From Parcubacteria bacterium C7867-008 (GTDB lineage Bacteria > Patescibacteriota > Minisyncoccia > Phycocordibacterales > Phycocordibacteraceae), in contig LFCR01000004.1 in NCBI GenBank assembly GCA_001189215.1, positions 313,635 through 377,634 on the forward strand: a DNA stretch of 64,000 bases, read 5' to 3'. This document shows, piece after piece, positions 38,624 through 57,705 of the stretch (its first letter is position 1; every line of letters starts with the position of its first letter). The notes under the pieces were generated by a model that was not told the origin of the DNA, ran no database searches, and worked only from the letters and a program-made list of their open reading frames with translations. Made by a program: the position numbers and the translations under genes.

Positions 38624-41600
38624 CTATGACGCAGACAGCACAACCGGAGCTGGAGCTGGTTCCGGTGCTGGAGTAGGAGCTGGTTCCGGTGCTGGAGTAG
38701 GAGCTGGTTCCGGTGCTGGAGTAGGAGTAGGTTCACTTGCTGGTAGCTGTGGTGCGCCCACATGTACCATTCGTGAGACCCCCGCACTCTGCCCTACCCC
38801 ATCCACTACTGAGTAGTTAATGGTATAGAGGCCGCTGGTATTTACATCCACCGTTCCTGTTACCGCAATTTGCGACGTAAGATCATTTCCTTGTGCATCA
38901 GTAGCAGTTGCTCCTGGGTCAGCCCAGTATGCACCCTGTGCAATATCAACGGCTGCGTCACCATTCAATGTAATGGTGGGTGCTCCAGGAACAGACGGTT
39001 CAGGTTCTGTTGGTGTTGGCTCCCCTGCGCTTGGAGTTGGTGGTGTGAACGGTGCAGCAACACTTGCAACCTGTGTTTGTTCCTCTGTCTGAACAATGAA
39101 GTAGTCGAAGGTTACATCTTCAGTCTGTGCTGAAGCAAGCGTGATTGTGAAACTTCCCTCCTGCTTCTCACGGATATACCAGCTACCATTGAGCGGTGAA
39201 GTAATAGTGACGAAGATCTTTGAGCTTGTGTGCATGAGTGGATTCGTCACTATTGTCTCTGTAGTTCCCACTGCAATGGTGCTAGTTGCAACTGATGAAG
39301 TTCCATCAGCAGCTGGAGCAGCAATAAGATTTGTGAACGCGAGCGAGCCAAAGCGTGCAATACCGTTCTGTATCAAGATACCCGCCTGAGCAAGCAGATC
39401 CTTAAGACCAGTAAGTGTAAGTGTTCCTCCAGTACCAGGGGTGCTTGATGCAATTGCCTCCAACATTGCAACACGGAGCTCAACTGCATCAATACGACCT
39501 GCAAGAAGTGCGGTTTGTGCGGTGAGTGATTGTACTCCCGTGATTGCATACGTTGCAGCCTTGTAGAGATCAACTCCTCCTTCTACAAGGATTTCACTCG
39601 GAAGAACACCGGTCGTTGATGCAATGGTGAATGTGATTGGTGTTGCAGGTGCAATAAATCCTGTCGCAAGAGCATTACCTGTAAGCGTAAGGCTTTGCGC
39701 GTTTATGTCGCTTGCTACTAGTGACTTAGGTTCAGACGGTTGTTCAGCATCCGGATGTTCAAGCTTACTGACCCGTGACCCAAGCGTCGTAGTAGACATA
39801 CTGAGAACTTCGAGTCTTCCAGCAAGATCCTTTATTGCGTTCACGCTCGCTGCAAGTATCGGACGATCGGAGAGACTCAAGTATCCCTGCGGACCAAGAT
39901 CTACAGCTTCTGGGATTACACTCTGGACGTTCTGTGCACTGAAACCAGCGTACAGCGTTGAACGGTCAAGACTACTTGTCGCATTCCAGTGGTAGAGAAT
40001 TGGATTAAGACCCTGTATTTCGGCAAGACCACGAGTGAACAAACCGTTTATATCCTTAAGACGTTCATCAGACGATACGGATAGGTTTCCGAGTGAATCT
40101 GTCTGCAATGTTCCTGCGCCGAAGGTTGCAAATCGTACTGACCCACTGGTACTGAGTTGAGCAGTAGGAGTAGTGGTACCGACGCCTATATTGCCTCCGT
40201 TACCGACCATGAAGTAGGTGCTTCCTGTTGACGTACCTACCGCAAAGATTGAAGAAGCACTATCTACCGTACTTACATTGAAGGTTGTTGAACCAACTGA
40301 GTTCTCAATGGCGAACGCATCTGAAACATCAGTTGTTGTCTTAAAACGAACACCTGCTGCACCAGAAACACTTAGTAGCCAGTTTGGTGTAGTAGTACCA
40401 ATACCTAGACGGCCGTTGGTGTTGTCCCATTTAAGAATACTTGCTCCCGAGTTTGCTGCCTGAGTGAGTTTGCTACCATCACTGAATACAATCCCGCCGT
40501 TATAGAAGGTTGTCGTAGCGGTACCACCACTTGCAAGTGTGTTGGTAAAGGAGGATCCAGTTGAAAGGCACACTCCGTTCATTGCGAAACAACCGGAAGT
40601 TAGGTTGATTCCTCCACTGCTATAAAAGGTTGATGTTGCAGTCGTAAAGTTGGCGATACCAGCGATAGAGAGAAGTGAACCAGGTGTTGTTGTACCAATA
40701 CCAACACTACCTCCATTACTGACCAAGAAACTTGTTGCAGATGATGAACCGACAACAAATGCTGGGGCTGTACCAATTGCATTTGGATTAACAGAGAAGG
40801 ATCCCCATGGCGTAGTACTTGAAATACCGACATTTCCGGTATTACCGAGAACCGAGATACGTGTAGTGCTATTCGCGCCAATACTTACTCCGCTTGATGT
40901 ACCTCCAGCCGAAATAACAATCTCACGATCATTGGTTTCGGTAATAAGACCGAATTGTGAACTGTTTGTGTACAACCTACCTGCGGTATTGCCTCCCGTA
41001 AGTCGAAGCTCGTTACCGGTATTTCCAGTCGGGTCATGTATCACGAGTGTTGCGCGACCCGCCGTACCAGGAGCAGGTGTAGCGGTGCCTATACCAACAT
41101 AGCCACTATTGGTAACAATGAACTTTACTCCAGTACTAGACCCAATTACAAAAGAAGGCGCTGTACCGTCTGCTGCGCTTGGATTTACTGATAGGCGTCC
41201 CCATGGTGATGAACTACCTACACCAGTAAATCCTTCGATAATGGCACCATTTGTTGGGGCGGTAATTCCTGCATAGGTTGCACCCAGGCCGAGGTTTCCT
41301 AATACGTTGAGACTTGAATTGGTCGCATTGGTATTAATACTGAACCCAGCGCTATTTACTTGTGCAGTACCAGTTGTACCCACGGTGCCATTAGCGCGGA
41401 AAACGATACGTCCAGAAGTTGGAGTCTGGAAGTAAAGATTACTATCACCTCCTCCAAAGAAACCAACCATGGTTGAGTCACCAAGACTGCCGTTTAGACT
41501 AATCGCTCCGTATGAAGGTGCACCCGCATCCACACCAAAGACGATTGGGTTTGATGCTCCAACTGTGTATTGAGTCATCTGACCATTCGCGTCAACCTTT

Positions 41601-44600
41601 AGATATGAACGTGTTGAAGAACCAATAACAAATGCGGGAGCACTACCCAGTGCTGCAGTTGGATTAATTGAGAGTAGTGCGGTTGGAGTTGACGTGCCAA
41701 GTCCAAGACGAGTGTTTGATTCACTCCAGAAAAAGTTTGCAGCAGCTGATGATTGGGTCAGCTTAGTACCATCAGAGAAGACCACGCCACCGTTGTAGAA
41801 CGATGTTGTAGCTGTACCTCCTGCCGCAAGTGTATTTGAGAATGAGCCTGCACCAACACAGGTGCCATTGATTGCGAAACAACCAGCAGTTAGGTTGATA
41901 CCTCCGGTTGAAGAGAAGCCGATGGCAAATGAAGGTACAGACCCGTATGTTGCGAGGGGATTGATTGAGAGCTGCGCCCACGGCGTGGAAGATGCAATAC
42001 CTACGTTACCTCGAAGATCACCATTTGCAGTAACTCCAAGGAGTACGTTACCGTCACGACCACCAATACCTCCCGATCCAACGGCACCACCTGCAAGGAA
42101 TACGTCCCCACCGTTACCGGCAGAACCTCCATTGTATGGACCTCCATCACCAGCAGTGAATAGCAGAGCACCTCCATCACCTCCACCAAATATGCCATCA
42201 TCCCCACCTCCTTTACCTGCATTGAGGATGATTCGCCCTCCGGTTCCTGCGATGTCAAAAAGTTCTACAAACTGCGAAGCATCATCAGCATACACCACGA
42301 GTCCATCTAAACCATTACCAGTGCTTGCTTCGCGTCCAGCAATAGAAAGGATACCCATCGGGGAACTTGTACCTACGCCTATCTTTCCGATAGGAGTGAG
42401 ACTCAAACCGCTACTAAAATCTCTAATGAAATTAAATTGACCGTTATCAAGACTAAATTGAGCAACACCATTGTTAAACTGTTTAAGATTTGCTGTGGCA
42501 AGAGCACCCGCAAACGTACTGGTGGCAGCAGTATTTGTTGCAGAGAAGAATGAGCCTACGACCTCACCTGCCACAGAAAGCCTTGCGTATGGAGATGATG
42601 TACCAATACCAAGATTCTTAGTGCTCTCACTCCAGAAGAAGTTTGCAGCGGATGCGGATTGCGTAAGCTTCGAACCATCACTGAACACTACCCCACCATT
42701 GTAGAAGGTGGTGGTTCCAGTACCGCCTGCCGCAAGTGTATTTGAGAATGAGCCTGCACCAACACAGGTGCCATTGATTGCGAAACAACCAGCAGTTAGG
42801 TTGATACCTCCGGTTGAAGAGAAGACAGGGTTAATTGATAGACGTCCCCACGGGGTTGAGGTACCGAGACCGAGGAACTTATTTGATTCACTCCAGAAGA
42901 AGTTGGCTGGGTCAGAAGATTGGGTAAGTTTTGTACCATCGCTGAATACGACACCACCGTTGTAGAACGTAGTGGTTGCAGTACCCCCATTTGCTAGAGT
43001 ATTGGAGAATGAACTACCTCCCACGCAAGTACCATTAATTGCAAAGCAGCCTGACGTTAGGTTGATACCTCCGGTTGAAGAGAAGGTTGAGGTTGCGGTA
43101 CTGAAGTTAGCAATACCTTGTATTGAGAGGAGTGAACCGGGTGTTGAGGTACCTATACCTACGAGTCCTGCGTTTGTGACTACAAAGTTAGTTGCCGTTG
43201 AAGATCCGATTACAAACGCAGGAGAAGTGCCGTTGCTTGCAATTGGGTTAATTGATAGACGCCCCCAAGGAGTGGTTGTTGCAACACCAACAGAACCTCC
43301 AAAATAGTTCTTGTTTGTTACAGAAGATGCATATACGCCGTATGTTGCACCTGTCACGTTTATACCTGCTCCGATAACAGAGTCACTAAGTATTGCATTG
43401 TTAGTTCCATCTGTAGCACTAAGTCCAACACCACTGCTCACATCAGCAATATCAATAGTATAAGGAGAGCTGGTGATGCGAACGGCACGATTCACTTGTG
43501 CAGGATCAGCATTAACAAGGAGTGCGGTCGTGTTTGGTAGGAAGGAAAGGGTACCTGATGTGTTTGAAAGACTAGCACCTTGAGCAACAACAAAGCCTGA
43601 AACGTATGCACTACCCCCAACTGAAAGTGTTGAGCCAGGGGTTGAGGTTCCGATACCAACGCGTCCTGCGCTAGTAACTAGGAAACTTGTTGCGGTTGAC
43701 GAACCAATACTAAATGCTGGAGCCGTGCCATTTGCAGCTGTTGGATTAATTGAAAGCTGAGCCCATGGTGTTGTTGAACCGACACCGACAAAACCATTAC
43801 CTGCCACCATGAAATCAGTCTTCGTGGAAGATCCGACTACAAATGAAGGTCGTGTACCGTTACCACTCTGGTTTATAGAGACCATTCCCCATGGTGATGT
43901 TGTTCCAAAGCCTGCCTGAATGGTGTTAAGTGCTGCCGTGCCTGATCCAGCTAAGGTAAGGGTCGGTATACCGGTGCCTGCGTTGTTGTCGATACCAATG
44001 TTTATTTTTGTGTTGAAGTTAGAGCGGATAGCTAGATCATTTTGTGCAGCACCCACAAACCATGAGTTCGCCGCACCAGAAAGAGCGAGTGCTGTCGTGT
44101 TAATGCCGGAACGAGCCAGCTTGATCGCAGGACTAAAGTTTGTGCCAGTCTGGGTTATAAGCAGACCGTCTCCTTCAATCGCGGTACTTATATTGAGCTT
44201 TGCTGCTGGAAACGCTGTTCCTATACCGACATTCGTAGTTGATGCAACGACGAAGCTTGTGCCAGTTGAAGATCCAATGGCAAACGCTGGTGCAGTAGCA
44301 TTCGTTGCCGTTGGGTTAATAGAAAGCTGTGCCCATGGCGTCGAGGTACCTAGACCAACATTTCCGTTATAGAGCGCTGTGAAGATCGGTGCCGTGCTTG
44401 TGGCGTTATTAATAGAAAGAATAGAAACATTCTGTGATTTCGTTGTTGAGGCGCTGAACGATGAGAAACCGTTTACGTTCAGACCGCTTCCGGCATTGAG
44501 ACTTCCCCATGCGTAAATGTCTCCATTCGCTGTAATGTTCTCGGTTACATTAAGGACGTTCGTAGCAATGTTCCCGGCGTAAAGCGAAGGCACTTCGGTG

Positions 44601-47600
44601 CCATTGATGTCGACAATCTGAAGGCCTGAGGAAGCATCCGCAACATACGCATACTTTCCAGAAACATAGACATCGGCAGTAGAACCTGAGGTATCAAAAG
44701 TCCCAATAAGCACCGGGGATGCGGCGTTCGAAATGTCGACGACTTGAACTCCATCCGCGCCATCTGCGACATACGCGTACTTTCCGGAAACGTAGACACC
44801 GCCCGCAGCTCCCGTGGTGTTATAGGTGCCAGCGAGTGAAGGCGCAACAGGGTTCGAGATGTCGACAATCTGAAGGCCTGAGGAAGCATCCGCAACATAC
44901 GCATACTTTCCAGAAACATAGACGGCTGCTGCAAATCCCGTGGTGTTATAGGTGCCAGCGAGTGAAGGCGCAACAGGGTTCGAGATGTCGATTATTTGGA
45001 GACCAGCAGTATCATCAGCGACATACGCATACTTTCCAGAAACGTATACATCCGTGGCGAAGCCTGTGGTATTAAACGTTCCAGCAAGCGTAGGTGACGC
45101 CGGATTCGATATGTCGATGACCAAGAGACCAGCTGAGTTATAACCAACATACGCGTACTTTCCGGAAACGTAGACACCGCTGGGAATGTCTACGCCAATG
45201 TAGGATCCCACAAGTGTAGGTGACGTTGGGTTCGAGATATCGATGACCTTGAGTGCCCCAGTATCATCAGTAATATAGGCGTACTTTCCTGAAACATAGA
45301 CATCGGCAATAAATGCCCCGCTGCTATACGTGCCAGCAAGCGTAGGTGACGCCGGATTCGATATATCGATGATTTGGAGTCCTCCAGAATCATCGGCGAC
45401 ATACGCATACTTTCCTGAGACTTGCACACCAAAGGACTGGCCTGGCGTGTCGTATGTTCCCATCAGCGTCGGATTCCCAAAAGCAGTCTGGATGAAGTTC
45501 CCTCCTGCGAGCGCGAGCTTAGCGAATGGACTTGATGTACCAATACCAACAAGTCCCGCATTTGTAACAACAAAGTTTGTTGCTGATGAAGAACCTATTG
45601 CAAACGATGGCGCCAAACCATTTGCTGCTGTTGGGTTAATAGAAAGCTGTGCCCAAGGTGTGGTTGAGGCAAGAGCAACGGTTGAGGTGAAGTTGTTTGC
45701 AGCACCCCAGGTATTTGCGGTGGTAGTACCGAATGCGAGAGAAAGAATGTTTGAAGAGAGTTGGATTGGATAGGTTGCAGTGAGAGGTGCTTGGTAATCG
45801 GTGCCGGATACTGCAACTGAGAGAAGACCGTTAGTTGATTTAACAAGACCACTGCCAAGACCATCGATTGTCGCCGTTCCATGAACAAGGAAGTTGCCTT
45901 CAACAGACAGTGCTGCAGACGGTGAGGTTGTTGCAATACCAAGGAAACCTGATGAGTTGAATCGTGCACGTTCAATACCCGACGTAGTGAAGCCGATTGT
46001 ATTTGCACCAGCGTGGAAGATACCCGTACCGAGGTCTGACGCCCACGTAAACGATGGTGCTGATGCGCCATCTGCGTTAAGACCAATGAATTGTGATCCT
46101 GTAGTGATGGAACCAGTCGTGTTGATAGTGGTTGCCGTAAGTCCCCCGTTGAAATCTTGGAGTTGGCTCCATTGGTTGGCAGTCGTAGTACCAAATGCGA
46201 GTGATACGTTGGTTCCAGAAAGTTGAAGTGGGTATGAGAAAGAGAGTGTATTGCCACCGACACAAGTTCCGTTTACCGCAAAACATCCATTGGTTAGGTT
46301 GATGCCTCCCGTTGAAGAGAATGTTGACGTTGCGTTAGTGAAGTTAACAATACCTTCTATGGAGAGGAGTGAGCCTGGAGTGGTGGTACCTATGCCAACA
46401 TTTCCATTGTTAAGGATATTAAACAGTGTTGTTGTTGCAGTTAACGTTGAAGATCCTATTGCAAAAAGGGTCTTATCTGTTGAGCCAGTATTTGCGTGTA
46501 TTGAGAGTTTTGCATAGGGCGAGCTACTGGCAATACCAATCTGTCCAGTAGTTGCATCTAAGAATGAAGTTGCACTTGTTGTTGCAGGAAGCGTACCGAA
46601 AAGCAGGTTGCCAATATTGAGTTGATTATTTGCTGTTGCACTTGCAAAACGCGTATTGAAACCAATCCCAATATTGTTTCCTCCCGTAGTAATGTAGCCA
46701 GTGCCACTAGTACCTGACTGAGTTCCCAGGAATGTGTTGTCGCCACCGGTAGTAATTGCACCACCAGCTCGAACACCCACCGCAGTATTGTTAGATCCTG
46801 ACAACAAATTCGTCATGGCAAATACACCAAATGCAGAGTTAGCTGCTCCCGTGGTATTTGAACTTAGTGCCGTTGCCCCGAACGCACTGTTATTTGACGC
46901 GGTTGTGTTTGAACCGAGAGCGCTGGTACCAATTGCCTGGTTGCGTATTCCTGTTGTGTTTGAACCGAGAGCGCTGCCCCCAATCGCAATGTTGTTATTT
47001 CCCGTCGTGTTGGTTGAAAGTGCCAGGGTACCAATCCCAATATTAAATGCACCTGAGTTTGCACCAAGCGTGCTTGAACCAAAACCTGCATTGTTTCCTA
47101 TATACACGCCATCACTTGCTGTTGCGCCATATCCAGCACCGGTACCCAGGAAGACGTTGCGTGCACCTGTGGTCTTTGTTGGTGATCCGTTTGCACCAAG
47201 CCCACCAAAGAAGTTACTGGTACCTAGTACCGAGATAGTTGTTGAACCCTGATAACTCAACAGGTTTGTGTTGCTGTCTACATTGAAGCCGCCTGTTGCT
47301 GTGGTGGTGCCTACAACGGATAGCGTCTGGTACGGGGTAGTAGTTCCAAGACCGAGTCGTGCATTTGATTCACTCCAGAAGAAGTTAGCAGCAGCTGATG
47401 ACTGGGTCAGCTTGGTGCCATCAGAGAACACTACACCGCCATTGTAGAACGTAGTGGTTCCCGTGCCACCACTTCCAAGACCGAGCGTTCCTCCAAGAGA
47501 ACTTAATGAAAGACAGGTTCCATTTATTGCGTAGCAGCCAGCTGCGAGATTTAGTCCACCAGTTGAGTAGAATGTTGAAGTTGCAGTGGTGAAGTTAGCA

Positions 47601-50600
47601 ATACCACCTACAGACAGAAGTGAGCCAGGTGAGGTTGTTCCGACACCAAAGAATCCAGATGAGTTGAAACGGCCTCGTTCAATACCACTGGTACTAAATC
47701 CAATGGTGTTGGCAGACCCATGGAAGATACCTGTACCCAAGTCACTTCCCCATGTAAATGATGGTGCGGACGCACTATCACCACTTAGACCAATGAACTG
47801 TGAACCGGTAGTGATGGAACCAGTCGTGTTGATAGTTGTTGCCGTAAGGCCTCCATTAAAGTCTTGGAGTTGGCTCCATTGATTAGCAGTGGTGGTACCA
47901 AACGCAAGTGATACGTTAGTTCCAGAAAGTTGAAGTGGGTATGCGAATGAGAGTGTATTGCCACCAATACATGAACCGTTAATTGCGAAACATCCATTCG
48001 TGAGGTTAATACCGCCTGATGATTGGAACGTTGAGGTTGCAGTGGTGAAGTTTGCGATTCCTTGTATTGAGAGGAGTGAACCAGGAGTTGAGGTACCGAT
48101 ACCAACATTTCCGTTATTGAGGATATTAAACAGAGTTGTTGTGGCGGTAGGTGAACTAGAGCCAATAGTGAAGAGATTGGTATTTGTTTCTCCACTGTTT
48201 GCATGGATGGAGAGTTTTGAGAATGGTGAAGAAGTACCAATGCCAACGTTACCGTTATAGAGCGCAGTAAATATTGGCGCAGAACTTGTCGCGTTGCTTA
48301 CTGAAAGTACTGAGATGTTCTGTGCACGAGATGTAGATGCATTAAATGTAGAGAAACCATTTACATTGAGACCATTTCCAGCCATGATAGTCCCCCATGC
48401 TGAAATATTTCCTCCAGAGAAAATGTTGTCGGTTGCGTTAAGTACGTTTGTTGCAATGTTTCCTGCCGTAAGTGCCGGTACATCAACGCCGTTGATATCA
48501 ATGATCTGAAGCCCCGCAGAAAGATCACCAACATACGCATACTTGCCGACGACAGTTACACCATATGCGGTACCTGATGTGTCATACGTACCCACAAGTA
48601 ATGGTTGTGCAGGATTGGTAACATCAAGTACCTGGAGACCCGAACTACCATCTCCAACATACGCATACCTTCCAGCAACAAAGATGCTGTGTGCAGTACC
48701 AGCAGTATCAAAGCTACCAACAGACGTTACTGATGCTGGGTTTGAGATATTAACGATTTGAACGCTTGCGAAAGGAGAACCTCCGTCTGAAATGTATGCG
48801 TACTTCCCAACCACCGTCACATCTTCAGCAATCCATGGGGTGTCATAGGTACTAACTAGTCTTGGATTTGCAGGGCTTGAAATATCAATGACGCGCAAAC
48901 CGCTGAAATCGTCTGCAACGTATGCATACTTACCAGCAATAGAGATGCCGCTTGGTGCTGAGAGGCCAGAAAGGAATCCGACACCGACTGGAGCAGTTGG
49001 GTTTGAAATATCAATCACGACGACATTTGCCCCTGTGCCATCAGTAACATACGCATACCTACCCACTATCGCAACACCATTGTAATCAAAAGCGCTAATA
49101 CTGTAGTTTCCTACCAGTGCTGGAGCCGTTGGATTTGAGATATCGATAACCTGAAGACCGCTTCCCGAGTCTGCGATGTACGCGTATTTACCTGAGATAG
49201 CAATTGCACCAGCGACACCAGGAGTGTCGTACGTACCTACAAGAACAGGTAGTGCAGGGTTTGAAACATCGATAATCTGAAGGCCGCTACCCGCATCTGC
49301 GACGTAAGCGTAACTACCTATAACTTGTGCAACTACAGCAGAACCTGCTGTGTTGTATGTTCCAAGTAGGGTTGGATTTCCAACAGCAGTCTGCACAAAG
49401 TTTCCTCCTGCAAGCGCAAACTTCGCAAATGGCGATGTTGTACCGATACCAACACGTCCTGCATTTGAAACAATAAAGCTTGTTGCTGACGAAGAACCAA
49501 CAACAAACGCTGGTGCGGTGCCGAGGGTTGCTATTGGATTAACAGAGAGTTGTGCCCATGGTGTTGACGTACCGACACCGAAATTACCCGTGCTACTCAC
49601 TCTCGCCTTTTCAGAACCACTTACATAAAATACGTGACTACCTGAGACTGGCACTATGTAATCAAGCTGACTTCCGCTAACGCCCAAACCAAATACCGTA
49701 GAGCCATCGTCATACAATTTGAGCTTTGGATTGTTACCCGCTGAGCTAGAGAAGGTACCACCCAAAGATACTACGACCGGACTGGCAGTTGACTGACTTG
49801 TCTGAGAGCCTATTTGTAGATTCGATTGTGGGTTTGTTGTACCAATTCCAACATTTCCTGCATTTGAAACAATGAAGCTTGTTGCTGACGAAGATCCAAC
49901 AACAAACGCTGGTGCGGTACCGAGCGTTGCTATTGGATTAACCGAGAGTTGTGCCCATGGTGTTGTAGAAGCAACACCCACACGTCCAGCGTTGAGTATC
50001 GAAACTAACGTGGTTGGACTCGCAGCAATGCCACTCTGAAAATTGAAATTTCCAGTAGCAGCACGGAAATTCACGTTTCCATTTGATCCATCATTATAGA
50101 ACCCAAAACCATTTGCGCCGGCGTCTGCTGTACGGTTCGAAGAGTTATAGTAGAAACCTGCAGTACTGGATGTATCGTTTTTAAAGACTACGATTGAGTG
50201 CGCTGTTGCACCTGCGCTTGAATTTTGGAAACTAAGTGGTGCAAATTGACCGCTGACTGATGTTGCAACTGTGAAGGTGTCAGTAGTATATATTTTTCCA
50301 TCGACGGAAAAGCGCTGTGCGGGTGTTGTGGTTCCTATACCCACATATCCTGAGTTTGATACTAGGAAGCTTGTTGCAGAGGACGAGCCGATTACGAATG
50401 CTGGTGATGTACCGAGAGTAGCTGTTGGGTTAATTGAGAGCTGTGCCCACGGTGTTGAAGTTCCGAGACCAAGGAATTTGTTTGATTCACTCCAGAAGAA
50501 GTTTGCTGCTGCAGAAGACTGTGTGAGTTTTGTACCGTCACTGAATACAACACCTCCGTTATAGAAGGTGGTTGTTCCTGTACCACCACTTCCAAGTCCA

Positions 50601-53600: not shown

Positions 53601-55864
53601 TAGTCAGTTGAAGTTGTAGAGAAATAATTGTTTGTACTATCGAGACCAAGTACACCATTCACCACAGAAAGTCCGAGACCAGTGAGATCAGTAACGTAAT
53701 CACTACCGAGTGCAATCGCGCCACTTGCAATGCGTGGCAAGGTTGAAGTGCCCGTTCCTGTTGCGTTGAAGATATCTCCCGTAATCGTACCTGCAACCGT
53801 GAGAAGTGATGCTGGTGTAGTAGTACCGATACCAACGTTACCGCTCGTATCAATGGTTACGCGTGCAATGTTGTTCGTTATGAACTGAAGTGGATTTACA
53901 TCAAGGGTACCAAGTACGGCAGTGGCACCATATGAATTTCCTCCTTGTTCAAAAGAAGTACCGCTCGACGTTGTTCCGGTGAATGTAAGAACACCGTTAA
54001 CAACAGTAAGACCAGTACCAGCGAAATCGGTTATGTAGTCACCACCGATACCAAATGAATTCACTACAAGGTTAGGTAGTGTTGATGTTGCGCTTAGAGA
54101 TGTTGCGGTGAAGAACGGTGCGCTTATCTCTCCAGAACTTGTGAGCATGCCACCGAGAGTGAGTGTTCCATCAAGAGTTGAATCGCCAGTTACATGTAGT
54201 GAGCTTGCAGTAATATCGCCTCCGTTTACTACATCACCACCTCCACCACCACTCGAACTGCGACGAATGAGGCGTGCAAGACTCTCACTCACGCCTGTAA
54301 GGCGCATATCGAGCATTTCCTTCGTAACGCCACCTTCTGTTGAGTTATAGAAATTCTGAATATTCGTTACATTTGTGCTGTTTCCGCCTGTACCGTAGCC
54401 AATTCCGTAGTTTGGACGTGAAGCATCCCCAGGGATAGTAACGGCAGGGGGAAGCGGTACAACTGCAAGGTTTCTATTGCCTCGTAGGAATGCGAGCACG
54501 CGGTCAATACCTGTATGGACAGCGGCCTGCAAGCCATGAATTGCTTCGTAGGTAGCTAGTGCAACGCGGCGTCCAGCATTCAAGAATGACTCAGACGATA
54601 CTGGAGTAAATGGTGAGAATGACGCTGGGTTCGCAACAATCGTTGACACGTCAGCTGTATTTATTTCAGGGAGAGAGACATTTGGAATATTAGAGGCTGA
54701 TGCAAATAGTGCGTCTGTGGCGGCAGGAACATCAATTCGTGCGAGTGATACTGCGCCTCTCATCGCAAGAAGCTGATTGTCGATAGTCTGTTGAGTAGCA
54801 AGAGCGAGCGAACGAATGTTTGTGTTTGCACCTTCCACAAAAGCTATTGCTGCTGGACCCGCATTAATTTCTGCATCTGCTGCATATGCGACCACTGTGT
54901 TCGAACCTTCAGCCCAAGATGTAATTCCATATGCATATGCATCGAGCATTGAACCTGATGTACTTGGTGCGCGGGCAATCAGATCACGAGTAGTTGCTGC
55001 AACGGAGAGAGTATTCTCGCCTGCACGATTAATGCCGAGATTATATGTATCAAGTAATGAATACAACACATCTCGTGTATCCGAGCCGAAGGTAATATAT
55101 CCATCAAGTGCGCGTGCTGTAAGTGACACATCGCCCCCTATAAAACGACTGAACGCGCGCTCGGTGTGAGCGCGCGAATGCTGTAGCGTTGCAGCGCGTG
55201 CTGCTGCAACGTTGTACGCAATAATCCGGTGTCCTGTTTCTGCGCGTGCATCAGGCACATCAATACGCGCAAGCATTGAACGTATTGTTGCGCTGTCGAT
55301 TGCAGGTACAAGTGCTTTTGCAAACTGTGTACGTTCTTGAGGAATAGCATTCAGTGTTGCTGTAGCTGTTGACGCAACACGGAGCCGCGGCTCCGTTGCA
55401 GAATCACTATTTGATACTGCACGAACCGCATTCATCGCAAACGAACCTGCATGTTCAACAACAGAACCAATGGGGCCAAATGCTGCATAGACACTTCCGC
55501 CCATAACGATAAGTGATGCAATAAATGCTGCTGCTGGAGCACGTAGTACTGAAGCATAAGGGCTTCGGACTGTGGCACGAGACACTTTCTTGTTCCTATT
55601 GTCTATTTTTGAGGCGTTCCTTTGTGCCTGCTGATATTCCTTTTCGCGAGTCTGCGAAAGTTCTGTTGCAATATCGCGCTTTCGATCATCTTGCTCGCGA
55701 ACAAACTGCTCGAGTGAATCACGATCAATCAACCACGTTCGACCAACTTGAGTTCCGGTAATTTTTCCTGAGCGACAGAGGCGGGAAAGGTAGTCAGCAT
55801 TGTACCCCGACAGCGATGCTGCGTCCTTAGTGGAGAGAAGATTTTTTTGAAGGATCAAAGTCAT
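38624..55864 (-). CDS. giant multidomain surface protein (5,746 aa): N-terminal HTH, single TM, LVIVD propellers, phage-fibre repeats, S74-like domain
   Basis: One uninterrupted 17,241-nt ORF. Excisionase/MerR-type HTH at aa 1-60; a TM helix at about aa 108-130. A ~45-aa module (PWAQLSxNP...APxFVxGSSxATxFxVxNxGxVGIGT) occurs in more than 13 copies. Two LVIVD-repeat blocks carry GKYAYVADxxSGLQIIDISNP. Phage_fibre_2-like NTAxGxxALxxNTTG repeats, a SDERLKDINGL...ILYHWN S74-like chaperone domain, an Ig-like domain and a PTPAPEPA linker follow. Confidence 0.85.
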   Translation of the reverse strand: MTLILQKNLLSTKDAASLSGYNADYLSRLCRSGKITGTQVGRTWLIDRDSLEQFVREQDDRKRDIATELSQTREKEYQQAQRNASKIDNRNKKVSRATVRSPYASVLRAPAAAFIASLIVMGGSVYAAFGPIGSVVEHAGSFAMNAVRAVSNSDSATEPRLRVASTATATLNAIPQERTQFAKALVPAIDSATIRSMLARIDVPDARAETGHRIIAYNVAAARAATLQHSRAHTERAFSRFIGGDVSLTARALDGYITFGSDTRDVLYSLLDTYNLGINRAGENTLSVAATTRDLIARAPSTSGSMLDAYAYGITSWAEGSNTVVAYAADAEINAGPAAIAFVEGANTNIRSLALATQQTIDNQLLAMRGAVSLARIDVPAATDALFASASNIPNVSLPEINTADVSTIVANPASFSPFTPVSSESFLNAGRRVALATYEAIHGLQAAVHTGIDRVLAFLRGNRNLAVVPLPPAVTIPGDASRPNYGIGYGTGGNSTNVTNIQNFYNSTEGGVTKEMLDMRLTGVSESLARLIRRSSSGGGGGDVVNGGDITASSLHVTGDSTLDGTLTLGGMLTSSGEISAPFFTATSLSATSTLPNLVVNSFGIGGDYITDFAGTGLTVVNGVLTFTGTTSSGTSFEQGGNSYGATAVLGTLDVNPLQFITNNIARVTIDTSGNVGIGTTTPASLLTVAGTITGDIFNATGTGTSTLPRIASGAIALGSDYVTDLTGLGLSVVNGVLGLDSTNNYFSTTSTDYWFTTKTTDALAEGITNLYFTNARADARINATSTIGTLTSAPNLGTVATSLTGILKATAGVLSPAVAGVDYENPLSFAYPLVRAINSVSLAFGTTTANQWNALQQFNGGASTTALTVSGPSFLSSLIAGNATTTSLNTTTFGLNSSYFTSLTGSGLVNTAGVLTLDRTGDWTGTFDGQEGSYYLDLANHTGVLAQVNGGTGISTYNSGDILFADGSGNLTTLPIGSAGQVLKVQAGLPAWGLDQTISGGGGGDGVFATSSGLIYPQDTSNVVVIGGSATSTSNSIFEVIGQQYISSRLGIATTTAPTQLSVSGSGYFTGGIGVGILNTVAGTLRTSGNATIGGALAVTGALTAGNATTTSLNTTTFGLNSSYFTSLTGSGLVNTAGVLTLDRTGDWTGTFDGQEGSYYLNAVNLTNFGERFYSYFSATTTDALAEGLTNRYFTDARADARINATSTIGTLVSAPNLTTVNTSLTGLLKATAGVLSVASAGTDYQVPLVFTYPLINSSDVISLAFGTTTVNTWGAANNFTSTVALASTTPWGQLSVNPTAANGTAPSFVVGSSSATNFVITNAGRVGIGTAAPAAKLHAVSTTEQLRVGYDGSNYTSFTVAANGALTVSPQGVAGGTILYAGQGAVTNGWAIGGTDVRGLLTLQKSDTSTYAANTDMGDAGRTFVMENTNTGNNANQFANITLQINPAGSIGSGRVLTDIRSVRETVNSSNAFFLFSGFRNDGTYKDYARIGYDTSYYIGKLGVGSTTPWANLSVNPIASDGSAPAFVVGSSSATTFLVSNGGRVGIGTSTPGSLLSIQGIANFGTATSTFYSSGGINLSSGCFAINGSCIGGNTLSFAYPLQLSGTNVSLAFGTTTANQWSQLQDFNGGLTATTILTSGSITTGSQFIGLNADGASAPSFTWASDLTTGIFHAGANAIGFSTSGIERARFNSSGFLGIATTSPGSLLSIEGVANFTAATSTFYSTGGLNLTGGCYAINGTCLTLSSLVGTLGLGSGGTGTTTFYNGGVVFSDGTKLTQSSAAANFFWSESNKFLGLGTSTPWAQLSINPTATLGTSPAFVIGSSSATSFLVSNSGYVGIGTTTPAQRFSVDGKIYTTDTFTVATSVSGQFAPLSFQNSSAGATAHSIVVFKNDTSSTAGFYYNSSNRTADAGANGFGFYNDGSNGNVNFRAATGNFNFQSGIAASPTTLVSILNAGRVGVASTTPWAQLSVNPIATLGTAPAFVVGSSSATSFIVSNAGNVGIGTTNPQSNLQIGSQTSQSTASPVVVSLGGTFSSSAGNNPKLKLYDDGSTVFGLGVSGSQLDYIVPVSGSHVFYVSGSEKARVSSTGNFGVGTSTPWAQLSVNPIATLGTAPAFVVGSSSATSFIVSNAGRVGIGTTSPFAKFALAGGNFVQTAVGNPTLLGTYNTAGSAVVAQVIGSYAYVADAGSGLQIIDVSNPALPVLVGTYDTPGVAGAIAISGKYAYIADSGSGLQVIDISNPTAPALVGNYSISAFDYNGVAIVGRYAYVTDGTGANVVVIDISNPTAPVGVGFLSGLSAPSGISIAGKYAYVADDFSGLRVIDISSPANPRLVSTYDTPWIAEDVTVVGKYAYISDGGSPFASVQIVNISNPASVTSVGSFDTAGTAHSIFVAGRYAYVGDGSSGLQVLDVTNPAQPLLVGTYDTSGTAYGVTVVGKYAYVGDLSAGLQIIDINGVDVPALTAGNIATNVLNATDNIFSGGNISAWGTIMAGNGLNVNGFSTFNASTSRAQNISVLSVSNATSSAPIFTALYNGNVGIGTSSPFSKLSIHANSGETNTNLFTIGSSSPTATTTLFNILNNGNVGIGTSTPGSLLSIQGIANFTTATSTFQSSGGINLTNGCFAINGSCIGGNTLSFAYPLQLSGTNVSLAFGTTTANQWSQLQDFNGGLTATTINTTGSITTGSQFIGLSGDSASAPSFTWGSDLGTGIFHGSANTIGFSTSGIERGRFNSSGFFGVGTTSPGSLLSVGGIANFTTATSTFYSTGGLNLAAGCYAINGTCLSLSSLGGTLGLGSGGTGTTTFYNGGVVFSDGTKLTQSSAAANFFWSESNARLGLGTTTPYQTLSVVGTTTATGGFNVDSNTNLLSYQGSTTISVLGTSNFFGGLGANGSPTKTTGARNVFLGTGAGYGATASDGVYIGNNAGFGSSTLGANSGAFNIGIGTLALSTNTTGNNNIAIGGSALGSNTTGIRNQAIGTSALGSNTTASNNSAFGATALSSNTTGAANSAFGVFAMTNLLSGSNNTAVGVRAGGAITTGGDNTFLGTQSGTSGTGYITTGGNNIGIGFNTRFASATANNQLNIGNLLFGTLPATTSATSFLDATTGQIGIASSSPYAKLSIHANTGSTDKTLFAIGSSTLTATTTLFNILNNGNVGIGTTTPGSLLSIEGIVNFTNATSTFSSTGGINLTNGCFAVNGTCVGGNTLSFSYPLQLSGTNVSLAFGTTTANQWSQLQDFNGGLTATTINTTGSITTGSQFIGLNADGASAPSFTWASDLGTGIFHAGANTIGFTTSGIERARFNSSGFLGIATTSPSAALSVEGNFLVHGTATIDGLGSGLVKSTNGLLSVAVSGTDYQAPLTATYPIQLSSNILSLAFGTTTANTWGAANNFTSTVALASTTPWAQLSINPTAANGLAPSFAIGSSSATNFVVTNAGLVGIGTSSPFAKLALAGGNFIQTAFGNPTLMGTYDTPGQSFGVQVSGKYAYVADDSGGLQIIDISNPASPTLAGTYSSGAFIADVYVSGKYAYITDDTGALKVIDISNPTSPTLVGSYIGVDIPSGVYVSGKYAYVGYNSAGLLVIDISNPASPTLAGTFNTTGFATDVYVSGKYAYVADDTAGLQIIDISNPVAPSLAGTYNTTGFAAAVYVSGKYAYVADASSGLQIVDISNPVAPSLAGTYNTTGAAGGVYVSGKYAYVADGADGVQVVDISNAASPVLIGTFDTSGSTADVYVSGKYAYVADASSGLQIVDINGTEVPSLYAGNIATNVLNVTENITANGDIYAWGSLNAGSGLNVNGFSSFSASTTKSQNVSILSINNATSTAPIFTALYNGNVGLGTSTPWAQLSINPTATNATAPAFAIGSSTGTSFVVASTTNVGIGTAFPAAKLNISTAIEGDGLLITQTGTNFSPAIKLARSGINTTALALSGAANSWFVGAAQNDLAIRSNFNTKINIGIDNNAGTGIPTLTLAGSGTAALNTIQAGFGTTSPWGMVSINQSGNGTRPSFVVGSSTKTDFMVAGNGFVGVGSTTPWAQLSINPTAANGTAPAFSIGSSTATSFLVTSAGRVGIGTSTPGSTLSVGGSAYVSGFVVAQGASLSNTSGTLSFLPNTTALLVNADPAQVNRAVRITSSPYTIDIADVSSGVGLSATDGTNNAILSDSVIGAGINVTGATYGVYASSVTNKNYFGGSVGVATTTPWGRLSINPIASNGTSPAFVIGSSTATNFVVTNAGLVGIGTSTPGSLLSIQGIANFSTATSTFSSTGGINLTSGCFAINGTCVGGSSFSNTLANGGTATTTFYNGGVVFSDGTKLTQSSDPANFFWSESNKFLGLGTSTPWGRLSINPVFSSTGGINLTAGCFAINGTCVGAGSFSNTLAAGGTGTTTFYNGGVVFSDGSKLTQSASAANFFWSESTKNLGIGTSSPYARLSVAGEVVGSFFSATNTAATSTFAGALATANLKQFNNGVAQFSLDNGQFNFIRDFSSGLSLTPIGKIGVGTSSPMGILSIAGREASTGNGLDGLVVYADDASQFVELFDIAGTGGRIILNAGKGGGDDGIFGGGDGGALLFTAGDGGPYNGGSAGNGGDVFLAGGAVGSGGIGGRDGNVLLGVTANGDLRGNVGIASSTPWAQLSINPLATYGSVPSFAIGFSSTGGINLTAGCFAINGTCVGAGSFSNTLAAGGTATTSFYNGGVVFSDGTKLTQSSAAANFFWSESNTRLGLGTSTPTALLSINPTAALGSAPAFVIGSSTRSYLKVDANGQMTQYTVGASNPIVFGVDAGAPSYGAISLNGSLGDSTMVGFFGGGDSNLYFQTPTSGRIVFRANGTVGTTGTAQVNSAGFSINTNATNSSLNVLGNLGLGATYAGITAPTNGAIIEGFTGVGSSSPWGRLSVNPSAADGTAPSFVIGSSTGVKFIVTNSGYVGIGTATPAPGTAGRATLVIHDPTGNTGNELRLTGGNTAGRLYTNSSQFGLITETNDREIVISAGGTSSGVSIGANSTTRISVLGNTGNVGISSTTPWGSFSVNPNAIGTAPAFVVGSSSATSFLVSNGGSVGIGTTTPGSLLSIAGIANFTTATSTFYSSGGINLTSGCFAMNGVCLSTGSSFTNTLASGGTATTTFYNGGIVFSDGSKLTQAANSGASILKWDNTNGRLGIGTTTPNWLLSVSGAAGVRFKTTTDVSDAFAIENSVGSTTFNVSTVDSASSIFAVGTSTGSTYFMVGNGGNIGVGTTTPTAQLSTSGSVRFATFGAGTLQTDSLGNLSVSSDERLKDINGLFTRGLAEIQGLNPILYHWNATSSLDRSTLYAGFSAQNVQSVIPEAVDLGPQGYLSLSDRPILAASVNAIKDLAGRLEVLSMSTTTLGSRVSKLEHPDAEQPSEPKSLVASDINAQSLTLTGNALATGFIAPATPITFTIASTTGVLPSEILVEGGVDLYKAATYAITGVQSLTAQTALLAGRIDAVELRVAMLEAIASSTPGTGGTLTLTGLKDLLAQAGILIQNGIARFGSLAFTNLIAAPAADGTSSVATSTIAVGTTETIVTNPLMHTSSKIFVTITSPLNGSWYIREKQEGSFTITLASAQTEDVTFDYFIVQTEEQTQVASVAAPFTPPTPSAGEPTPTEPEPSVPGAPTITLNGDAAVDIAQGAYWADPGATATDAQGNDLTSQIAVTGTVDVNTSGLYTINYSVVDGVGQSAGVSRMVHVGAPQLPASEPTPTPAPEPAPTPAPEPAPTPAPEPAPAPVVLSAS
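38653..38724 (-). repeat. 3 x 24-bp perfect tandem repeat (encodes PT linker)
   Basis: GAGCTGGTTCCGGTGCTGGAGTAG appears three times exactly, in-frame, encoding (PTPAPEPA)x3. Confidence 0.9.
44500..45480 (-). repeat. LVIVD-repeat beta-propeller block 2 (coding, within giant gene)
   Basis: Seven or more units of SGKYAYVADxxxGLQIIDISNPxxPxLxGTY; approximate limits. Confidence 0.6.
48300..49330 (-). repeat. LVIVD-repeat beta-propeller block 1 (coding, within giant gene)
   Basis: Eight units starting GSYAYVADAGSGLQIIDVSNP; approximate limits. Confidence 0.6.
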
Positions 55865-56619
55865 GTCGGATATCCGAATTAACTAAATTCTATCGCACTA
55901 ATTCAGAATCTCTTCACTTTTATTTGTGGATAAAATTTACTATTTCCTCATGAACGTTTTTTAAGAAATTAATAGTGAATTCGGATACTGAAAAGTAATG
56001 AATTTTGATTCAAAATAGTTGCATCTAGCTCTTAGACTACCGTTAATTTTAAATTCTTTGAGAAGATTTAAATTTCTCGACCTAAAATCAAGCAATGCAG
56101 GTGGCAATTTCAGAAAGTCTCTACTGACATTCAGTACATCTATCCGCACAAATTGAACGCAATGAGCGAATTTGTAGAATAAGTTGTCAAAGTGTTTAAA
56201 ACGATGACTAGATTGCACTATTTAATCTAATTATTCATTTCCTGCACATATTTTATATATAGTGGTCGAGTATCCGATATACCTAGTATTTACTTACTAT
56301 TTTAATAATACTTATTTCCTATTAATCTTTTTGTTTAATAGCAGATAGCTTACTTGAAATACTCTGTGTCCAAACGAGACTGACACGAACTGCATATCTA
56401 TATGGAAATATATAAGTCTCATCTATAAATTCCTTTGCGTCGAGTATTTATACCTATGTATACGTTTAAATTGCTTAGAACGCATTTAAATGCCTTGTTT
56501 ATTCTTTAGTATAGGCAAAAACTCACTTATACGTGCAACATTAGTTTCTATAAATGAAAACTGCGCCTCATATTGGCGCAGTTTTCATTTATTTTTTGCC
56601 GAGATAACTATTCCTTTAT
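55865..56619. promoter_or_regulatory. 755-bp AT-rich non-coding leader/promoter region of the giant gene
   Basis: No credible ORF. Contains a 12-bp palindrome TCGGATATCCGA abutting the start codon, and a GTATCCGA(A/T) motif three times (55866, 55978 inverted, 56269). Confidence 0.5.
56556..56597. terminator. bidirectional intrinsic terminator
   Basis: GAAAACTGCGCC-tcatatt-GGCGCAGTTTTC perfect 12-bp stem followed by ATTTATTTTTT; it lies 23 nt past the stop of the 56620-57621 gene. Confidence 0.75.
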
Positions 56620-57621: not shown

Positions 57622-57705
57622 ACATAAAGTATAAGGCTATCTCGTCTTGTATGGAATAGAATATCAACAGTAGATAAAGGATAACTAAATCAGTGTTGCT
57701 TCTCC

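What the first reader, a model, noticed from the sequence alone, without database searches (positions are those of the whole stretch)
38624..55864. 5,746-aa giant surface protein that fuses phage tail-fibre modules, LVIVD propellers and a cytoplasmic HTH
One unbroken 17.2-kb ORF. The cytoplasmic N-terminus is an excisionase/MerR-like HTH followed by a single TM helix, so the remaining ~5,600 aa should be extracellular. The ectodomain mixes more than 13 copies of an unrecognised ~45-aa module (PWAQLSxNP...VGIGT, often with a CFAINGTC disulfide-like loop), two LVIVD beta-propellers, phage-fibre repeats, an S74-like chaperone domain, an Ig-like domain and a PT linker. A membrane-anchored protein carrying phage receptor-binding machinery next to a prophage suggests an adhesion or host-attachment apparatus of the kind proposed for episymbiotic CPR bacteria. 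It could also be a domesticated tail-fibre array. The DNA-binding N-terminus on a membrane protein is unexplained.
Basis: partly seen in the sequence, partly recalled or inferred. Interest (0 to 1): 0.85.

Follow-up and report, generated by a model that had tools for sequence, protein, structure and literature searches.

The report
Giant membrane-anchored fibre protein of CPR bacteria
This 5,746-residue gene is real and belongs to an apparently undescribed but widespread family of giant, phage-tail-fibre-like surface fibres of ultra-small CPR bacteria, each anchored in the membrane behind a DNA-binding-type domain and preceded by an almost invariant palindromic DNA element.

Summary
There is one unbroken 5,746-aa ORF on the minus strand (38624-55864). 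It has an HTH_17 domain, one TM helix, about 16 PWAQLS..VGIGT modules, nine C-x6-C loops, two 7-bladed LVIVD propellers, an S74 chaperone domain with an intact SDERLK motif, an Ig-like domain and a PT tail.

The gene is not prophage-linked and not a chimera. It is the local member of a Patescibacteria (CPR) family; 873 cluster representatives match its N-terminal profile at E<=1e-10, though how many of these are giants is not established. Members share the head (HTH, TM) and, in the six complete relatives examined, the tail (S74, beta domain, Ig-like), with a shuffled middle. The gene always sits in one chromosomal locus: gatB, a small HTH-TM gene, the giant gene, then usually GAPDH.

The "unrecognised" module is the repeat unit of solved Bdellovibrio MAT fibres (Bd3182, Bd2133).

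A new finding is an almost invariant 21-nt leader, TAGTTAATTCGGATATCCGAC, containing a 12-bp palindrome. It precedes the start codon in all 14 loci found through the protein alone. Every one of 35 metagenome matches to it precedes such a gene.

The best reading is a membrane-anchored, probably trimeric surface fibre for cell-cell contact. Its HTH may bind its own leader, but this is inferred and untested. I class it as a new variant of a known kind, interest about 0.65.

The parts
38624..55864 (-). Giant gene, 5,746 codons plus stop
55691..55840 (-). Cytoplasmic Xis/MerR-like winged HTH (aa 9-58). It continues into a long helix to about aa 93 (down to 55586).
   Evidence: Pfam HTH_17 at 31.5 bits. 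AF2 pLDDT is about 95 for aa 8-88. Foldseek best matches are Xis 4J2N, TraN, BldC, RdfS and RacA.
55472..55540 (-). Single TM helix / signal anchor (aa ~109-131), N-in
   Evidence: All large family members checked but one have exactly one TM after the HTH.
54230..55471 (-). Family-specific extracellular N-domain (aa ~132-545). It is predicted helical at low confidence.
40103..54229 (-). Modular fibre region (aa ~546-5254). It holds MAT-type beta-helix / capping-loop repeats, C-x6-C loop modules, a YadA-head-like GxxAxG stretch (my reading of the sequence; no profile hit) and other shuffled blocks.
48440..49387 (-). LVIVD beta-propeller 1 (aa ~2160-2475)
44540..45487 (-). LVIVD beta-propeller 2 (aa ~3460-3775)
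39902..40072 (-). Peptidase_S74 intramolecular chaperone domain (aa 5265-5321). The S-D-E-R-L-K motif is at aa 5265-5270 (window 40055-40072).
39095..39901 (-). Conserved tail: helical region plus the 'SWYI..FDYFIVQTE' beta domain (aa ~5322-5590)
38759..38974 (-). Ig-like domain (Bact_surface_Ig-like / DUF5011), aa 5631-5702
38627..38758 (-). Pro/Thr/Ala/Glu-rich C-terminal tail
55865..55885 (-). Nearly invariant leader TAGTTAATTCGGATATCCGAC directly before the ATG. It contains the perfect palindrome TCGGATATCCGA (55866-55877).
55925..55933 (-). Conserved upstream box TTATCCACA, about 67-78 nt before the start codon. By my recollection it matches the DnaA-box consensus. It is a single copy here, so this is not an origin.
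56266..56277 (-). Degenerate second copy of the palindrome (TCGGATACTCGA), about 400 nt upstream. L013 and L031 carry exact second copies.
56620..57621 (-). Conserved partner gene, 333 aa: N-terminal HTH paralogous to the giant's, an acidic linker, a C-terminal TM and a short outside tail

Best explanation
The gene encodes a type II (N-in) membrane-anchored surface fibre of a Patescibacteria (CPR) bacterium.

Shown:
- The first ~95 residues form an Xis/MerR-like winged HTH plus a long helix.
- One TM helix follows.
- The remaining ~5,600 residues are built from repeat units homologous to the trimeric beta-helix fibres of Bdellovibrio MAT adhesins and phage tail fibres. Two LVIVD propellers are inserted, and the region ends in an S74 intramolecular chaperone with an intact Ser-Lys motif, a conserved beta domain, an Ig-like domain and a Pro-rich tail.
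- It is one member of a family with a conserved head and tail and a mosaic middle.
- The gene sits in a fixed chromosomal locus next to a small HTH-TM paralogue.
- It lies behind a nearly invariant palindromic leader whose distance to a -10-like box is fixed.

Inferred:
- After Sec export, three chains are zipped from the C-terminal S74 domain into a fibre hundreds of nanometres long. The fibre stays tethered by its N-terminal TM helices and mediates contact with host or partner cells. The variable middle and tip set the specificity.
- The S74 domain may cut itself at S5265.
- The cytoplasmic HTH, alone or with the small HTH-TM neighbour, binds the palindrome at the gene's own transcription start. 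This would give autoregulation or membrane tethering of this very costly gene.
For: - ORF and domains.
- Topology: one TM, positive-inside flanks, and Cys pairs found only in the ectodomain.
- HTH fold: pLDDT about 95. The best structural neighbours listed are all proteins solved as DNA binders (Xis, TraN, BldC, RdfS, RacA, SoxR).
- Module homology to the solved MAT fibres 8OJN and 8OND, E 3.7e-5 and 7.5e-5, with aligned VGxGTxxPxxxL loops. MAT biology is from PMC10769870.
- S74: above the Pfam cutoff, and the SDERLK motif is conserved in relatives.
- Family: 873 representatives at E<=1e-10 and 49 at <=1e-30. Members reach 5,467 aa, nearly all with HTH followed by one TM. The six complete relatives share the same tail.
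- All relatives found in genomes are CPR.
- Synteny holds in at least 10 independent loci. The small HTH-TM gene lies upstream in 34 of 42 loci; most of the other eight have little upstream DNA.
- Leader: present in all 14 protein-found loci. All 35 metagenome matches precede an HTH-family start. Spacing to the -10-like box is fixed, while spacing to the ATG is 0, 10 or 22 nt. In 559 kb of fetched DNA the core occurs only in this intergenic region.
- The HTH is the most conserved protein segment, at 58-80% identity.
Against: - Trimer state, surface location, S74 cleavage and binding partners are all untested.
- The AF2 monomer model of a module block failed (pLDDT 35), so the fibre fold rests on sequence homology alone.
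- The S74 domain is not terminal. A conserved ~425-aa tail follows it, and cleavage would release that tail, which is unexplained.
- A threefold fibre does not obviously fit a twofold palindrome.
- DNA binding by the HTH is circumstantial. The palindrome could be bound by another protein or could act in the RNA.
- The gene is a single-copy, syntenic core gene. That also fits a general envelope or structural role rather than a host-specific adhesin.
- The literature search was limited to open-access text.
Confidence: 0.6

Rival explanations
1. The fibre reading is right, but the HTH is a protein-docking module rather than a DNA binder. RodZ is the precedent: its N-terminal HTH binds MreB (my recollection of the literature, not looked up here). 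The HTH would anchor the fibre to a cytoplasmic partner or to the small HTH-TM neighbour. The palindromic leader would then be recognised by some other factor, or would act as an RNA or promoter element.
For: - The architecture (HTH, TM, outside domain) is the same as RodZ.
- The gene pair with a paralogous HTH-TM protein is conserved.
- The TIGR01764 excisionase model scores just under its cutoff, 27.6 against 28.8.
- There is a threefold-versus-twofold symmetry mismatch between a trimeric fibre and a palindrome.
Against: - The fold matches Xis/MerR-type DNA binders, not the Xre type that I recall for RodZ.
- An almost invariant palindrome sits at the promoter of exactly this gene and nowhere else in 559 kb. 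This is what co-conservation of a DNA-binding domain and its operator would look like.
Confidence: 0.25
2. The protein is a general envelope component rather than a host-recognition adhesin. It would form a fibrous coat, spacer or protective layer.
For: - It is a single-copy, vertically inherited core locus among housekeeping genes.
- The head and tail are conserved.
- Vampirococcus cells show a thick fibrous coat that has been attributed to giant proteins (PMC8080830).
Against: - The middle is mosaic and lengths range from 3,484 to 5,746 aa among the complete members.
- The fibre carries binding-type domains (LVIVD propellers, Ig-like).
- The closest characterised relatives, the MAT fibres, are adhesins.
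Confidence: 0.2
3. The gene is a domesticated or cargo tail-fibre array that belongs to the adjacent prophage.
For: - A prophage (terminase, portal, Rep-O, Sak4-like, amidase, LysM) lies within ~3 kb, at about 12-35.5 kb.
- PHROGs gives tail-fibre hits for the giant protein.
Against: - GC is 0.47 for the giant gene against 0.55 for the prophage, and the AT skew differs.
- GAPDH and a 653-aa gene lie between them.
- Orthologous loci have gatB..giant..GAPDH with no phage genes among those listed nearby.
- tblastn finds no similarity to any prophage ORF.
Confidence: 0.03
4. The ORF is an assembly collapse or a chimera of several genes.
For: The ORF is highly repetitive. One orthologue (P0001/L002) is frameshifted, and another (P0002/L003) ends after the N-domain.
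Against: - The repeats are diverged at the DNA level.
- An identical sequence exists in a second deposited contig.
- Six other complete members, from different samples, have the same head-to-tail architecture.
Confidence: 0.02

Closest known systems
MAT (mosaic adhesive trimer) fibres of Bdellovibrio bacteriovorus, e.g. Bd3182 and Bd2133 (Caulton et al. 2024, PMC10769870; PDB 8OJN, 8ONB, 8ONC, 8OND)
   Same: - Repeat units are sequence-homologous (…TNNxxRMTIDxxGNVGIGTxxPxxxLxV) and carry the capping-loop motif.
- Both have an S74 chaperone with SDxxxK.
- Both have a mosaic make-up with a variable distal part.
- In Bdellovibrio the fibres sit on the surface of a bacterium that lives off other bacteria.
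   Different: - MATs are about 600-1,000 aa. They have a signal peptide and a conserved ~130-aa beta-rich N-domain, and they are described in a Gram-negative predator.
- This protein is 5-9 times longer.
- It is anchored by HTH plus TM plus a different N-domain.
- It carries LVIVD propellers.
- Its S74 domain is followed by a conserved ~425-aa tail.
- CPR bacteria are not listed among the MAT hosts in that paper or its supplements.
Phage tail fibres and tailspikes with a C-terminal S74 intramolecular chaperone (K1F endosialidase 3GW6 and T5 pb1 4UW8, as cited in PMC10769870)
   Same: Both have an S74 domain with a Ser-Lys motif, which implies C-to-N trimer folding. PHROGs gives tail-fibre hits.
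   Different: This protein is not in a virion module. Its N-terminus is a membrane anchor instead of a virion-attachment domain. The gene is chromosomal and syntenic across CPR lineages.
Giant membrane proteins of episymbiotic or predatory CPR bacteria (Vampirococcus lugosii, PMC8080830)
   Same: Both are very large membrane-localised proteins in CPR bacteria. Those of Vampirococcus have been proposed to form the fibrous surface and attach to hosts.
   Different: The Vampirococcus proteins carry WD40, PKD, integrin and fibronectin-type domains. No HTH head, S74 domain or conserved locus is described for them.
Bitopic membrane proteins with a cytoplasmic N-terminal HTH: ToxR/CadC-type regulators and RodZ (from my own knowledge, not looked up here)
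   Same: The topology is the same: a cytoplasmic HTH, one TM helix and an outside domain.
   Different: The HTH class differs (Xis/MerR-like rather than OmpR-type or Xre-type). The outside part is a 5,600-aa fibre rather than a small sensor domain.

Membership tests
MAT superfamily (PMC10769870) | Beta-helix fibre repeats with the capping-loop motif V-G-G/N-pi-x-x-P-x-x-x-L | tested here: met
   phmmer hits to Bd3182 (8OJN, E 3.7e-5) and Bd2133 (8OND, E 7.5e-5), with the loops aligned. The protein has 36 VGxG[TS]-type motifs. In this protein the Pro appears one position later than in the motif as published.
MAT superfamily (PMC10769870) | Signal peptide followed by a conserved ~130-aa beta-rich N-terminal domain | tested here: not met
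   The N-terminus is an HTH, a long helix, a TM helix and a family-specific domain predicted helical at low confidence.
MAT superfamily (PMC10769870) | C-terminal S74 domain (SDxxxK) or an alternative adhesive tip | tested here: met
   S74 scores 34.5 bits and SDERLK lies at aa 5265-5270. However, 476 further residues follow the motif.
MAT superfamily (PMC10769870) | Trimeric state and surface display | not testable with these tools
   The monomer AF2 model failed, and no multimer prediction or experiment is available.
Peptidase_S74 / intramolecular chaperone (PF13884) | Profile match above the curated cutoff, with the Ser-Lys dyad present | tested here: met
   34.5 bits against a cutoff of 22. 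A Ser with Lys five residues later is kept in the six aligned complete family tails.
Peptidase_S74 / intramolecular chaperone (PF13884) | Autoproteolytic release of the chaperone | not testable with these tools
   This needs expression of aa ~5100-5746 with and without an S5265A change.
HTH_17 / excisionase-MerR-like winged helix | Profile match and fold | tested here: met
   PF12728 scores 31.5 bits against a cutoff of 27. TIGR01764 is just below its cutoff, 27.6 against 28.8. AF2 pLDDT is about 95. Foldseek gives Xis 4J2N with rmsd 1.7 A and target TM-score 0.72-0.74.
HTH_17 / excisionase-MerR-like winged helix | Sequence-specific DNA binding | not testable with these tools
   The evidence is only circumstantial: a co-conserved palindromic leader.
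LVIVD repeat beta-propeller (PF08309) | Tandem LVIVD repeats | tested here: met
   14 stretches, E 4e-162, in two blocks. TIGR04312 choice-of-anchor B scores 103 bits.
Prophage-encoded tail fibre | The gene lies within a phage structural module or shares sequence with it | tested here: not met
   The gene is in a conserved host locus between gatB and GAPDH. tblastn finds no hit to the prophage region. The base composition differs.
ToxR-like membrane-bound transcription regulators | OmpR-type winged helix, one TM helix and a periplasmic sensor (features as I recall them) | tested here: not met
   The topology is shared, but the HTH is Xis/MerR-like. This is an analogy of mechanism only.

The most novel reading that the evidence does not exclude
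The cytoplasmic HTH of a giant surface fibre is a working DNA-binding domain that recognises the nearly invariant palindrome at its own transcription start. The fibre protein would then feed back directly on its own 17-kb gene. Possible forms are nascent-chain or membrane-tethered autorepression, tethering of the gene to the export site, or release of the HTH after host contact. The conserved small HTH-TM neighbour would act as a partner. This would be a CPR-wide surface-to-genome regulatory module of a new kind.
Probability: 0.3. Interest if true: 0.85.

Novelty: new variant of a known kind. Interest (0 to 1): 0.65.

Why it matters
How CPR/Patescibacteria recognise and hold on to their hosts is largely unknown beyond type IV pili and a few adhesins.

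This work defines a widespread, syntenic and easily recognised family of giant fibres in several CPR lineages, including Saccharibacteria, where genetics is now possible. The family ties these fibres to the structurally solved MAT and phage-fibre class. Databases currently label the members only as 'excisionase family' or 'helix-turn-helix domain-containing' proteins.

The conserved HTH head together with the invariant palindromic leader gives a concrete, cheap test for a possible direct link between a surface fibre and gene control: an EMSA with about 95 residues of protein and a 21-bp DNA duplex.

Tried and rejected
1. An AF2 monomer model of a 316-aa module block (aa 1495-1810, five paralogous rows) gave pLDDT 35 and was unusable, so no fold search was run on it.
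2. In the AF2 model of aa 1-560, only the HTH and long helix are confident. The TM helix and N-domain are below 50.
3. The word-indexed homology search with the N-terminus found only 2-3 relatives. The full HMMER scan was needed to find the family.
4. An oriC reading of the AT-rich 755-nt spacer with a TTATCCACA box was rejected. There is a single box and no enrichment in the window.
5. An Rfam scan of the window and the spacer found nothing above threshold, only chance hits on the terminator hairpin.
6. An RNA-hairpin or Shine-Dalgarno-like role for the leader is not favoured. The palindrome is invariant, so no covariation test is possible. Its distance to the start codon varies (0, 10 or 22 nt), while its distance to the -10-like box is fixed.
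7. An invertible-promoter idea, based on a partial inverted copy at about -110, was dropped because that copy is not conserved in other loci.
8. A self-BLAST of the whole protein was uninformative, so tiled BLAST was used instead.
9. The look-up of encoding contigs could not take the giant protein because it exceeds 5,000 aa.
10. Literature searches for CPR together with LVIVD, S74 or intramolecular chaperone found no description of this family.
Full report
OBSERVATION

The window holds one unbroken ORF at 38624..55864 on the minus strand, ATG start, 5,746 aa.
- HTH_17 at aa 9-58, 31.5 bits against a cutoff of 27.
- 14 LVIVD repeats, E 4e-162, in two blocks of seven at about aa 2160-2475 and 3460-3775.
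- Peptidase_S74 at aa 5265-5321, 34.5 bits against a cutoff of 22.
- Bact_surface_Ig-like at aa 5631-5702, 70 bits.

NCBIfam adds 'choice-of-anchor B' on the propellers and a near-threshold excisionase domain. PHROGs adds modest tail-fibre hits.

A hydropathy scan finds exactly one TM-like segment, at aa ~109-131. Its N-side flank has net charge +6 and its C-side flank about -1, so the HTH is predicted inside and the remainder outside. There are 16 P[WYF]xxLSxNP...VGIGT modules and nine C-x6-C loops. Of the 19 cysteines, all but C30 in the HTH sit in those pairs, which fits an extracellular location.

The DNA repeats are diverged, mostly 60-90% identical. A JGI contig is identical over 17.4 kb, although it may come from the same sample.

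CONTEXT

On the coding strand the gene order is SecA, an HI0933-like oxidoreductase, Obg, GatB, a 333-aa protein, a 755-nt AT-rich spacer, the giant gene, a 653-aa secreted protein of unknown function, and GAPDH. A prophage-like region follows, with Rep-O, a Sak4-like ATPase, a methylase, large terminase, portal, a LysM protein and an amidase. Its GC is 0.55 against 0.47 for the giant gene, and its AT skew is very different.

tblastn of the giant protein against the rest of the window hits only the HTH of the 333-aa neighbour. The prophage is therefore a bystander.

A FAMILY, NOT A ONE-OFF

A word-indexed search with aa 1-560 found only two relatives. A full HMMER scan with the three-sequence profile found 4,877 cluster representatives at E<=1e-3, 873 at <=1e-10 and 49 at <=1e-30. 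How many of these are giants rather than proteins sharing only the head was not determined. Among the best 150, 48 exceed 1,000 aa, and complete proteins of 5,467, 5,216, 4,235, 3,831 and 3,484 aa are present.

Of the 34 members longer than 1,500 aa that I checked, 33 have the HTH followed by exactly one TM helix at about aa 95-185; one had no segment above my threshold. The six complete relatives that reach a C-terminus share the same tail as the window protein:
- S74 with a Ser and a Lys five residues later.
- A helical stretch.
- A 'SWYIxxKxEGSF..FDYFIVQTE' beta domain.
- A PT linker.
- The Ig-like domain.
- A Pro-rich end.

The middle differs in length and module order. Segment identities to five relatives are 58-80% for the HTH and helix, 27-48% for the N-domain, 45-69% for the tail and 55-79% for the Ig-like domain. 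The HTH is the most conserved part.

All relatives located in genomes are Patescibacteria: Parcubacteria, Paceibacterota, Kaiserbacteria or Saccharibacteria. Sources annotate them only as 'excisionase family DNA binding protein' or 'helix-turn-helix domain-containing protein'.

SYNTENY

In every locus with enough flanking DNA, the giant gene follows GatB and a small HTH-TM gene. GAPDH follows directly in L048, and after one extra gene in L047 and in the window.

The small protein (226-372 aa) has a very conserved HTH (Y[IV]SSK.AA..TGYAKDY[IV]GQLCREG), an acidic linker, a DMQxAWxEWF motif and a C-terminal TM helix. It lies directly upstream in 34 of 42 loci. Of the remaining eight, seven have under 1.5 kb of upstream DNA and one has 1,483 nt.

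WHAT THE MODULES ARE

phmmer against PDB sequences aligns the repeat …F(I/E)TNNxxR(V/M)TIDxxGNVGIGTTxPxSxLxV to two Bdellovibrio fibres: the Bd3182 tip (8OJN, 8ONB, 8ONC; E 3.7e-5) and Bd2133 (8OND; E 7.5e-5).

These are the mosaic adhesive trimer (MAT) fibres described in PMC10769870. That paper reports trimeric beta-helices with 'capping loops' of motif V-G-G/N-pi-x-x-P-x-x-x-L, many ending in an autoproteolytic S74 domain with SDxxxK. They are displayed on the predator surface, and at least one binds prey glycans.

CPR genomes also encode ordinary-sized S74 proteins of 600-860 aa that NCBI names 'tail fiber domain-containing protein'.

An AF2 monomer model of one module block failed (pLDDT 35). 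That is uninformative for an obligate oligomer with a five-row alignment.

THE HTH

AF2 with a 30-row family alignment gives pLDDT of about 95 for aa 8-88. The model shows strand, helix, helix and a two-strand wing, followed by a long helix. The rest is below 50.

The best Foldseek PDB matches are mycobacteriophage Pukovnik Xis (4J2N; rmsd 1.7 A, target TM-score 0.72-0.74), TraN, BldC, RdfS excisionase, RacA and MerR-type proteins. Most of these entries are DNA-bound or described as DNA-binding. The E-values are weak, 0.03 and above, because the domain is small within a 560-residue query.

A CONSERVED CIS ELEMENT (NEW)

Aligning the spacers of four loci showed that the sequence just before the ATG is far better conserved than the proteins: TTATCCACA, about 32 nt, TAGAAT, then TTAGTTAATTCGGATATCCGAC|ATG. 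It includes the perfect 12-bp palindrome TCGGATATCCGA at window 55866-55877.

The evidence for this element is as follows.
- The leader is present, with 0-2 base changes or a 2-nt shorter variant in Saccharibacteria L009, in all 14 loci found through the protein alone: L002-L009, L046 and L048-L051.
- A metagenome scan for TAGYTAATTCGGWTATCCGAC returned 35 loci. In all 35 the match is followed within 0-22 nt by an ORF that starts with the family's N-terminal sequence; one is frameshifted and two are cut very short by contig ends. TATCCACA lies 67-78 nt upstream in 32 of them.
- The element keeps a fixed distance to a -10-like TAnnAT box, but its distance to the start codon is 0, 10 or 22 nt. 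This argues for a promoter or transcription-start function rather than a ribosome-binding one.
- In 559 kb of fetched CPR DNA the core occurs only in this spacer. L013 and L031 carry a second upstream copy, and the window has a degenerate one.
- No Rfam family matches.
- There is a single DnaA-box-like site, so this is not an origin.

MECHANISM

Shown:
- The topology signals.
- Homology of the repeats to solved trimeric fibres.
- An intact S74 motif.
- The family architecture.
- The conserved locus and leader.

Inferred:
- The protein is exported by Sec with its N-terminus retained in the membrane.
- It is trimerised from the C-terminal S74 domain.
- It forms a very long fibre. Scaling from Bd3182 (about 550 A for about 780 residues, PMC10769870) gives a few hundred nanometres for about 5,100 residues. 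I recall CPR cells as being of comparable size, but that was not checked here.
- By analogy with MAT fibres and with the giant proteins proposed for Vampirococcus (PMC8080830), the likeliest role is contact with host or partner cells, with the mosaic middle providing specificity.
- The HTH most plausibly binds the palindromic leader of its own gene, alone or with the small paralogue.

The last point is supported only by co-conservation. A RodZ-like protein-docking role is the main rival. A general envelope role also remains open, because the gene is a single-copy core gene.

It is unexplained why a conserved ~425-aa tail follows the S74 domain, since cleavage at S5265 would release it.

KNOWN VERSUS NEW

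Phage-fibre-like adhesins on bacteria (MAT) and giant surface proteins in CPR bacteria are both known. The following combination was not found in the open-access literature searched:
- The HTH-TM head.
- The giant MAT-like body with LVIVD propellers.
- The extended S74 tail.
- The fixed gatB / small-HTH / giant locus.
- The invariant palindromic leader.

I class it as a new variant of a known kind. It fails one defining MAT feature, the N-terminal domain, so it should be described as working like a MAT fibre rather than filed as a member.

VERDICT

The CPR origin and the surface-fibre reading hold. The prophage link, the 'unrecognised' module and the 'inexplicable' HTH do not. Interest is 0.65.

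Noticed in passing
window 57622-57655 (minus strand), and the equivalent position in 34 loci: The small HTH-TM gene has its own conserved upstream element..AG(C/A)CGAGATAxGxxTATACT. A -10-like box lies only 5-8 nt from the ATG, which suggests a leaderless mRNA.
   Followed up: partly
window ~56596-56612 (just after the stop of the 333-aa gene); 22 of 36 unique loci: A recurrent motif TATCTCG(TCTCG) sits right after the small gene's stop codon. It is an inverted copy of the CGAGA core found upstream of that gene, so the small gene is flanked by inverted copies. Its function is unknown.
   Followed up: partly
window 56550-56592: An 18-bp-stem hairpin with T-runs on both sides lies between the small gene and the giant gene. 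It looks like a bidirectional terminator. The spacer is 277-761 nt long across loci, which seems long for small CPR genomes.
   Followed up: partly
window ~12000-35500: A prophage-like region carries terminase, an SU10-type portal, Rep-O, a Sak4-like ATPase, an N6/N4 methylase, a LysM protein and an amidase. Its GC is 0.55 and its AT skew is strong. No integrase and no tRNA were found, so its borders and integration site are undefined.
   Followed up: partly
window 7919-10432: An 837-aa protein has an HSP70/MreB-like ATPase N-terminal half. It sits in a cluster with an AAA ATPase, a Yip1-domain protein and an S49 peptidase, left of the phage structural genes.
   Followed up: no
window 36644-38605: A 653-aa secreted Ser/Thr/Gly-rich protein lies directly downstream of the giant gene. 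It has no Pfam hit and a weak match to phrog_3329 (unknown function). It is absent at this position in L047 and L048.
   Followed up: partly
L002, L003, L046: There are annotation and assembly problems in relatives. P0001 is a frameshifted giant gene. The N-terminal extension of P0002 and the first 3 residues of P0004 are translated from the leader element, so these starts are mis-called. L003 carries two giant genes in tandem.
   Followed up: partly
P0177, P0180, P0181, P0184: Patescibacteria chromosomes (contigs of 43-414 kb) also encode ordinary-sized S74 'tail fiber domain-containing' proteins of 600-860 aa. MAT-like fibres of normal length therefore appear to coexist with the giant family.
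   Followed up: no
L011, L021, L029, L033, L042: In one subgroup a 22-nt insert, CATCTATC(A/C)ACAC(G/C)TTAT(A/C)(C/A)GA, separates the leader from the ATG. Its 3' part looks to me like a degenerate duplicate of the leader's 3' half.
   Followed up: no
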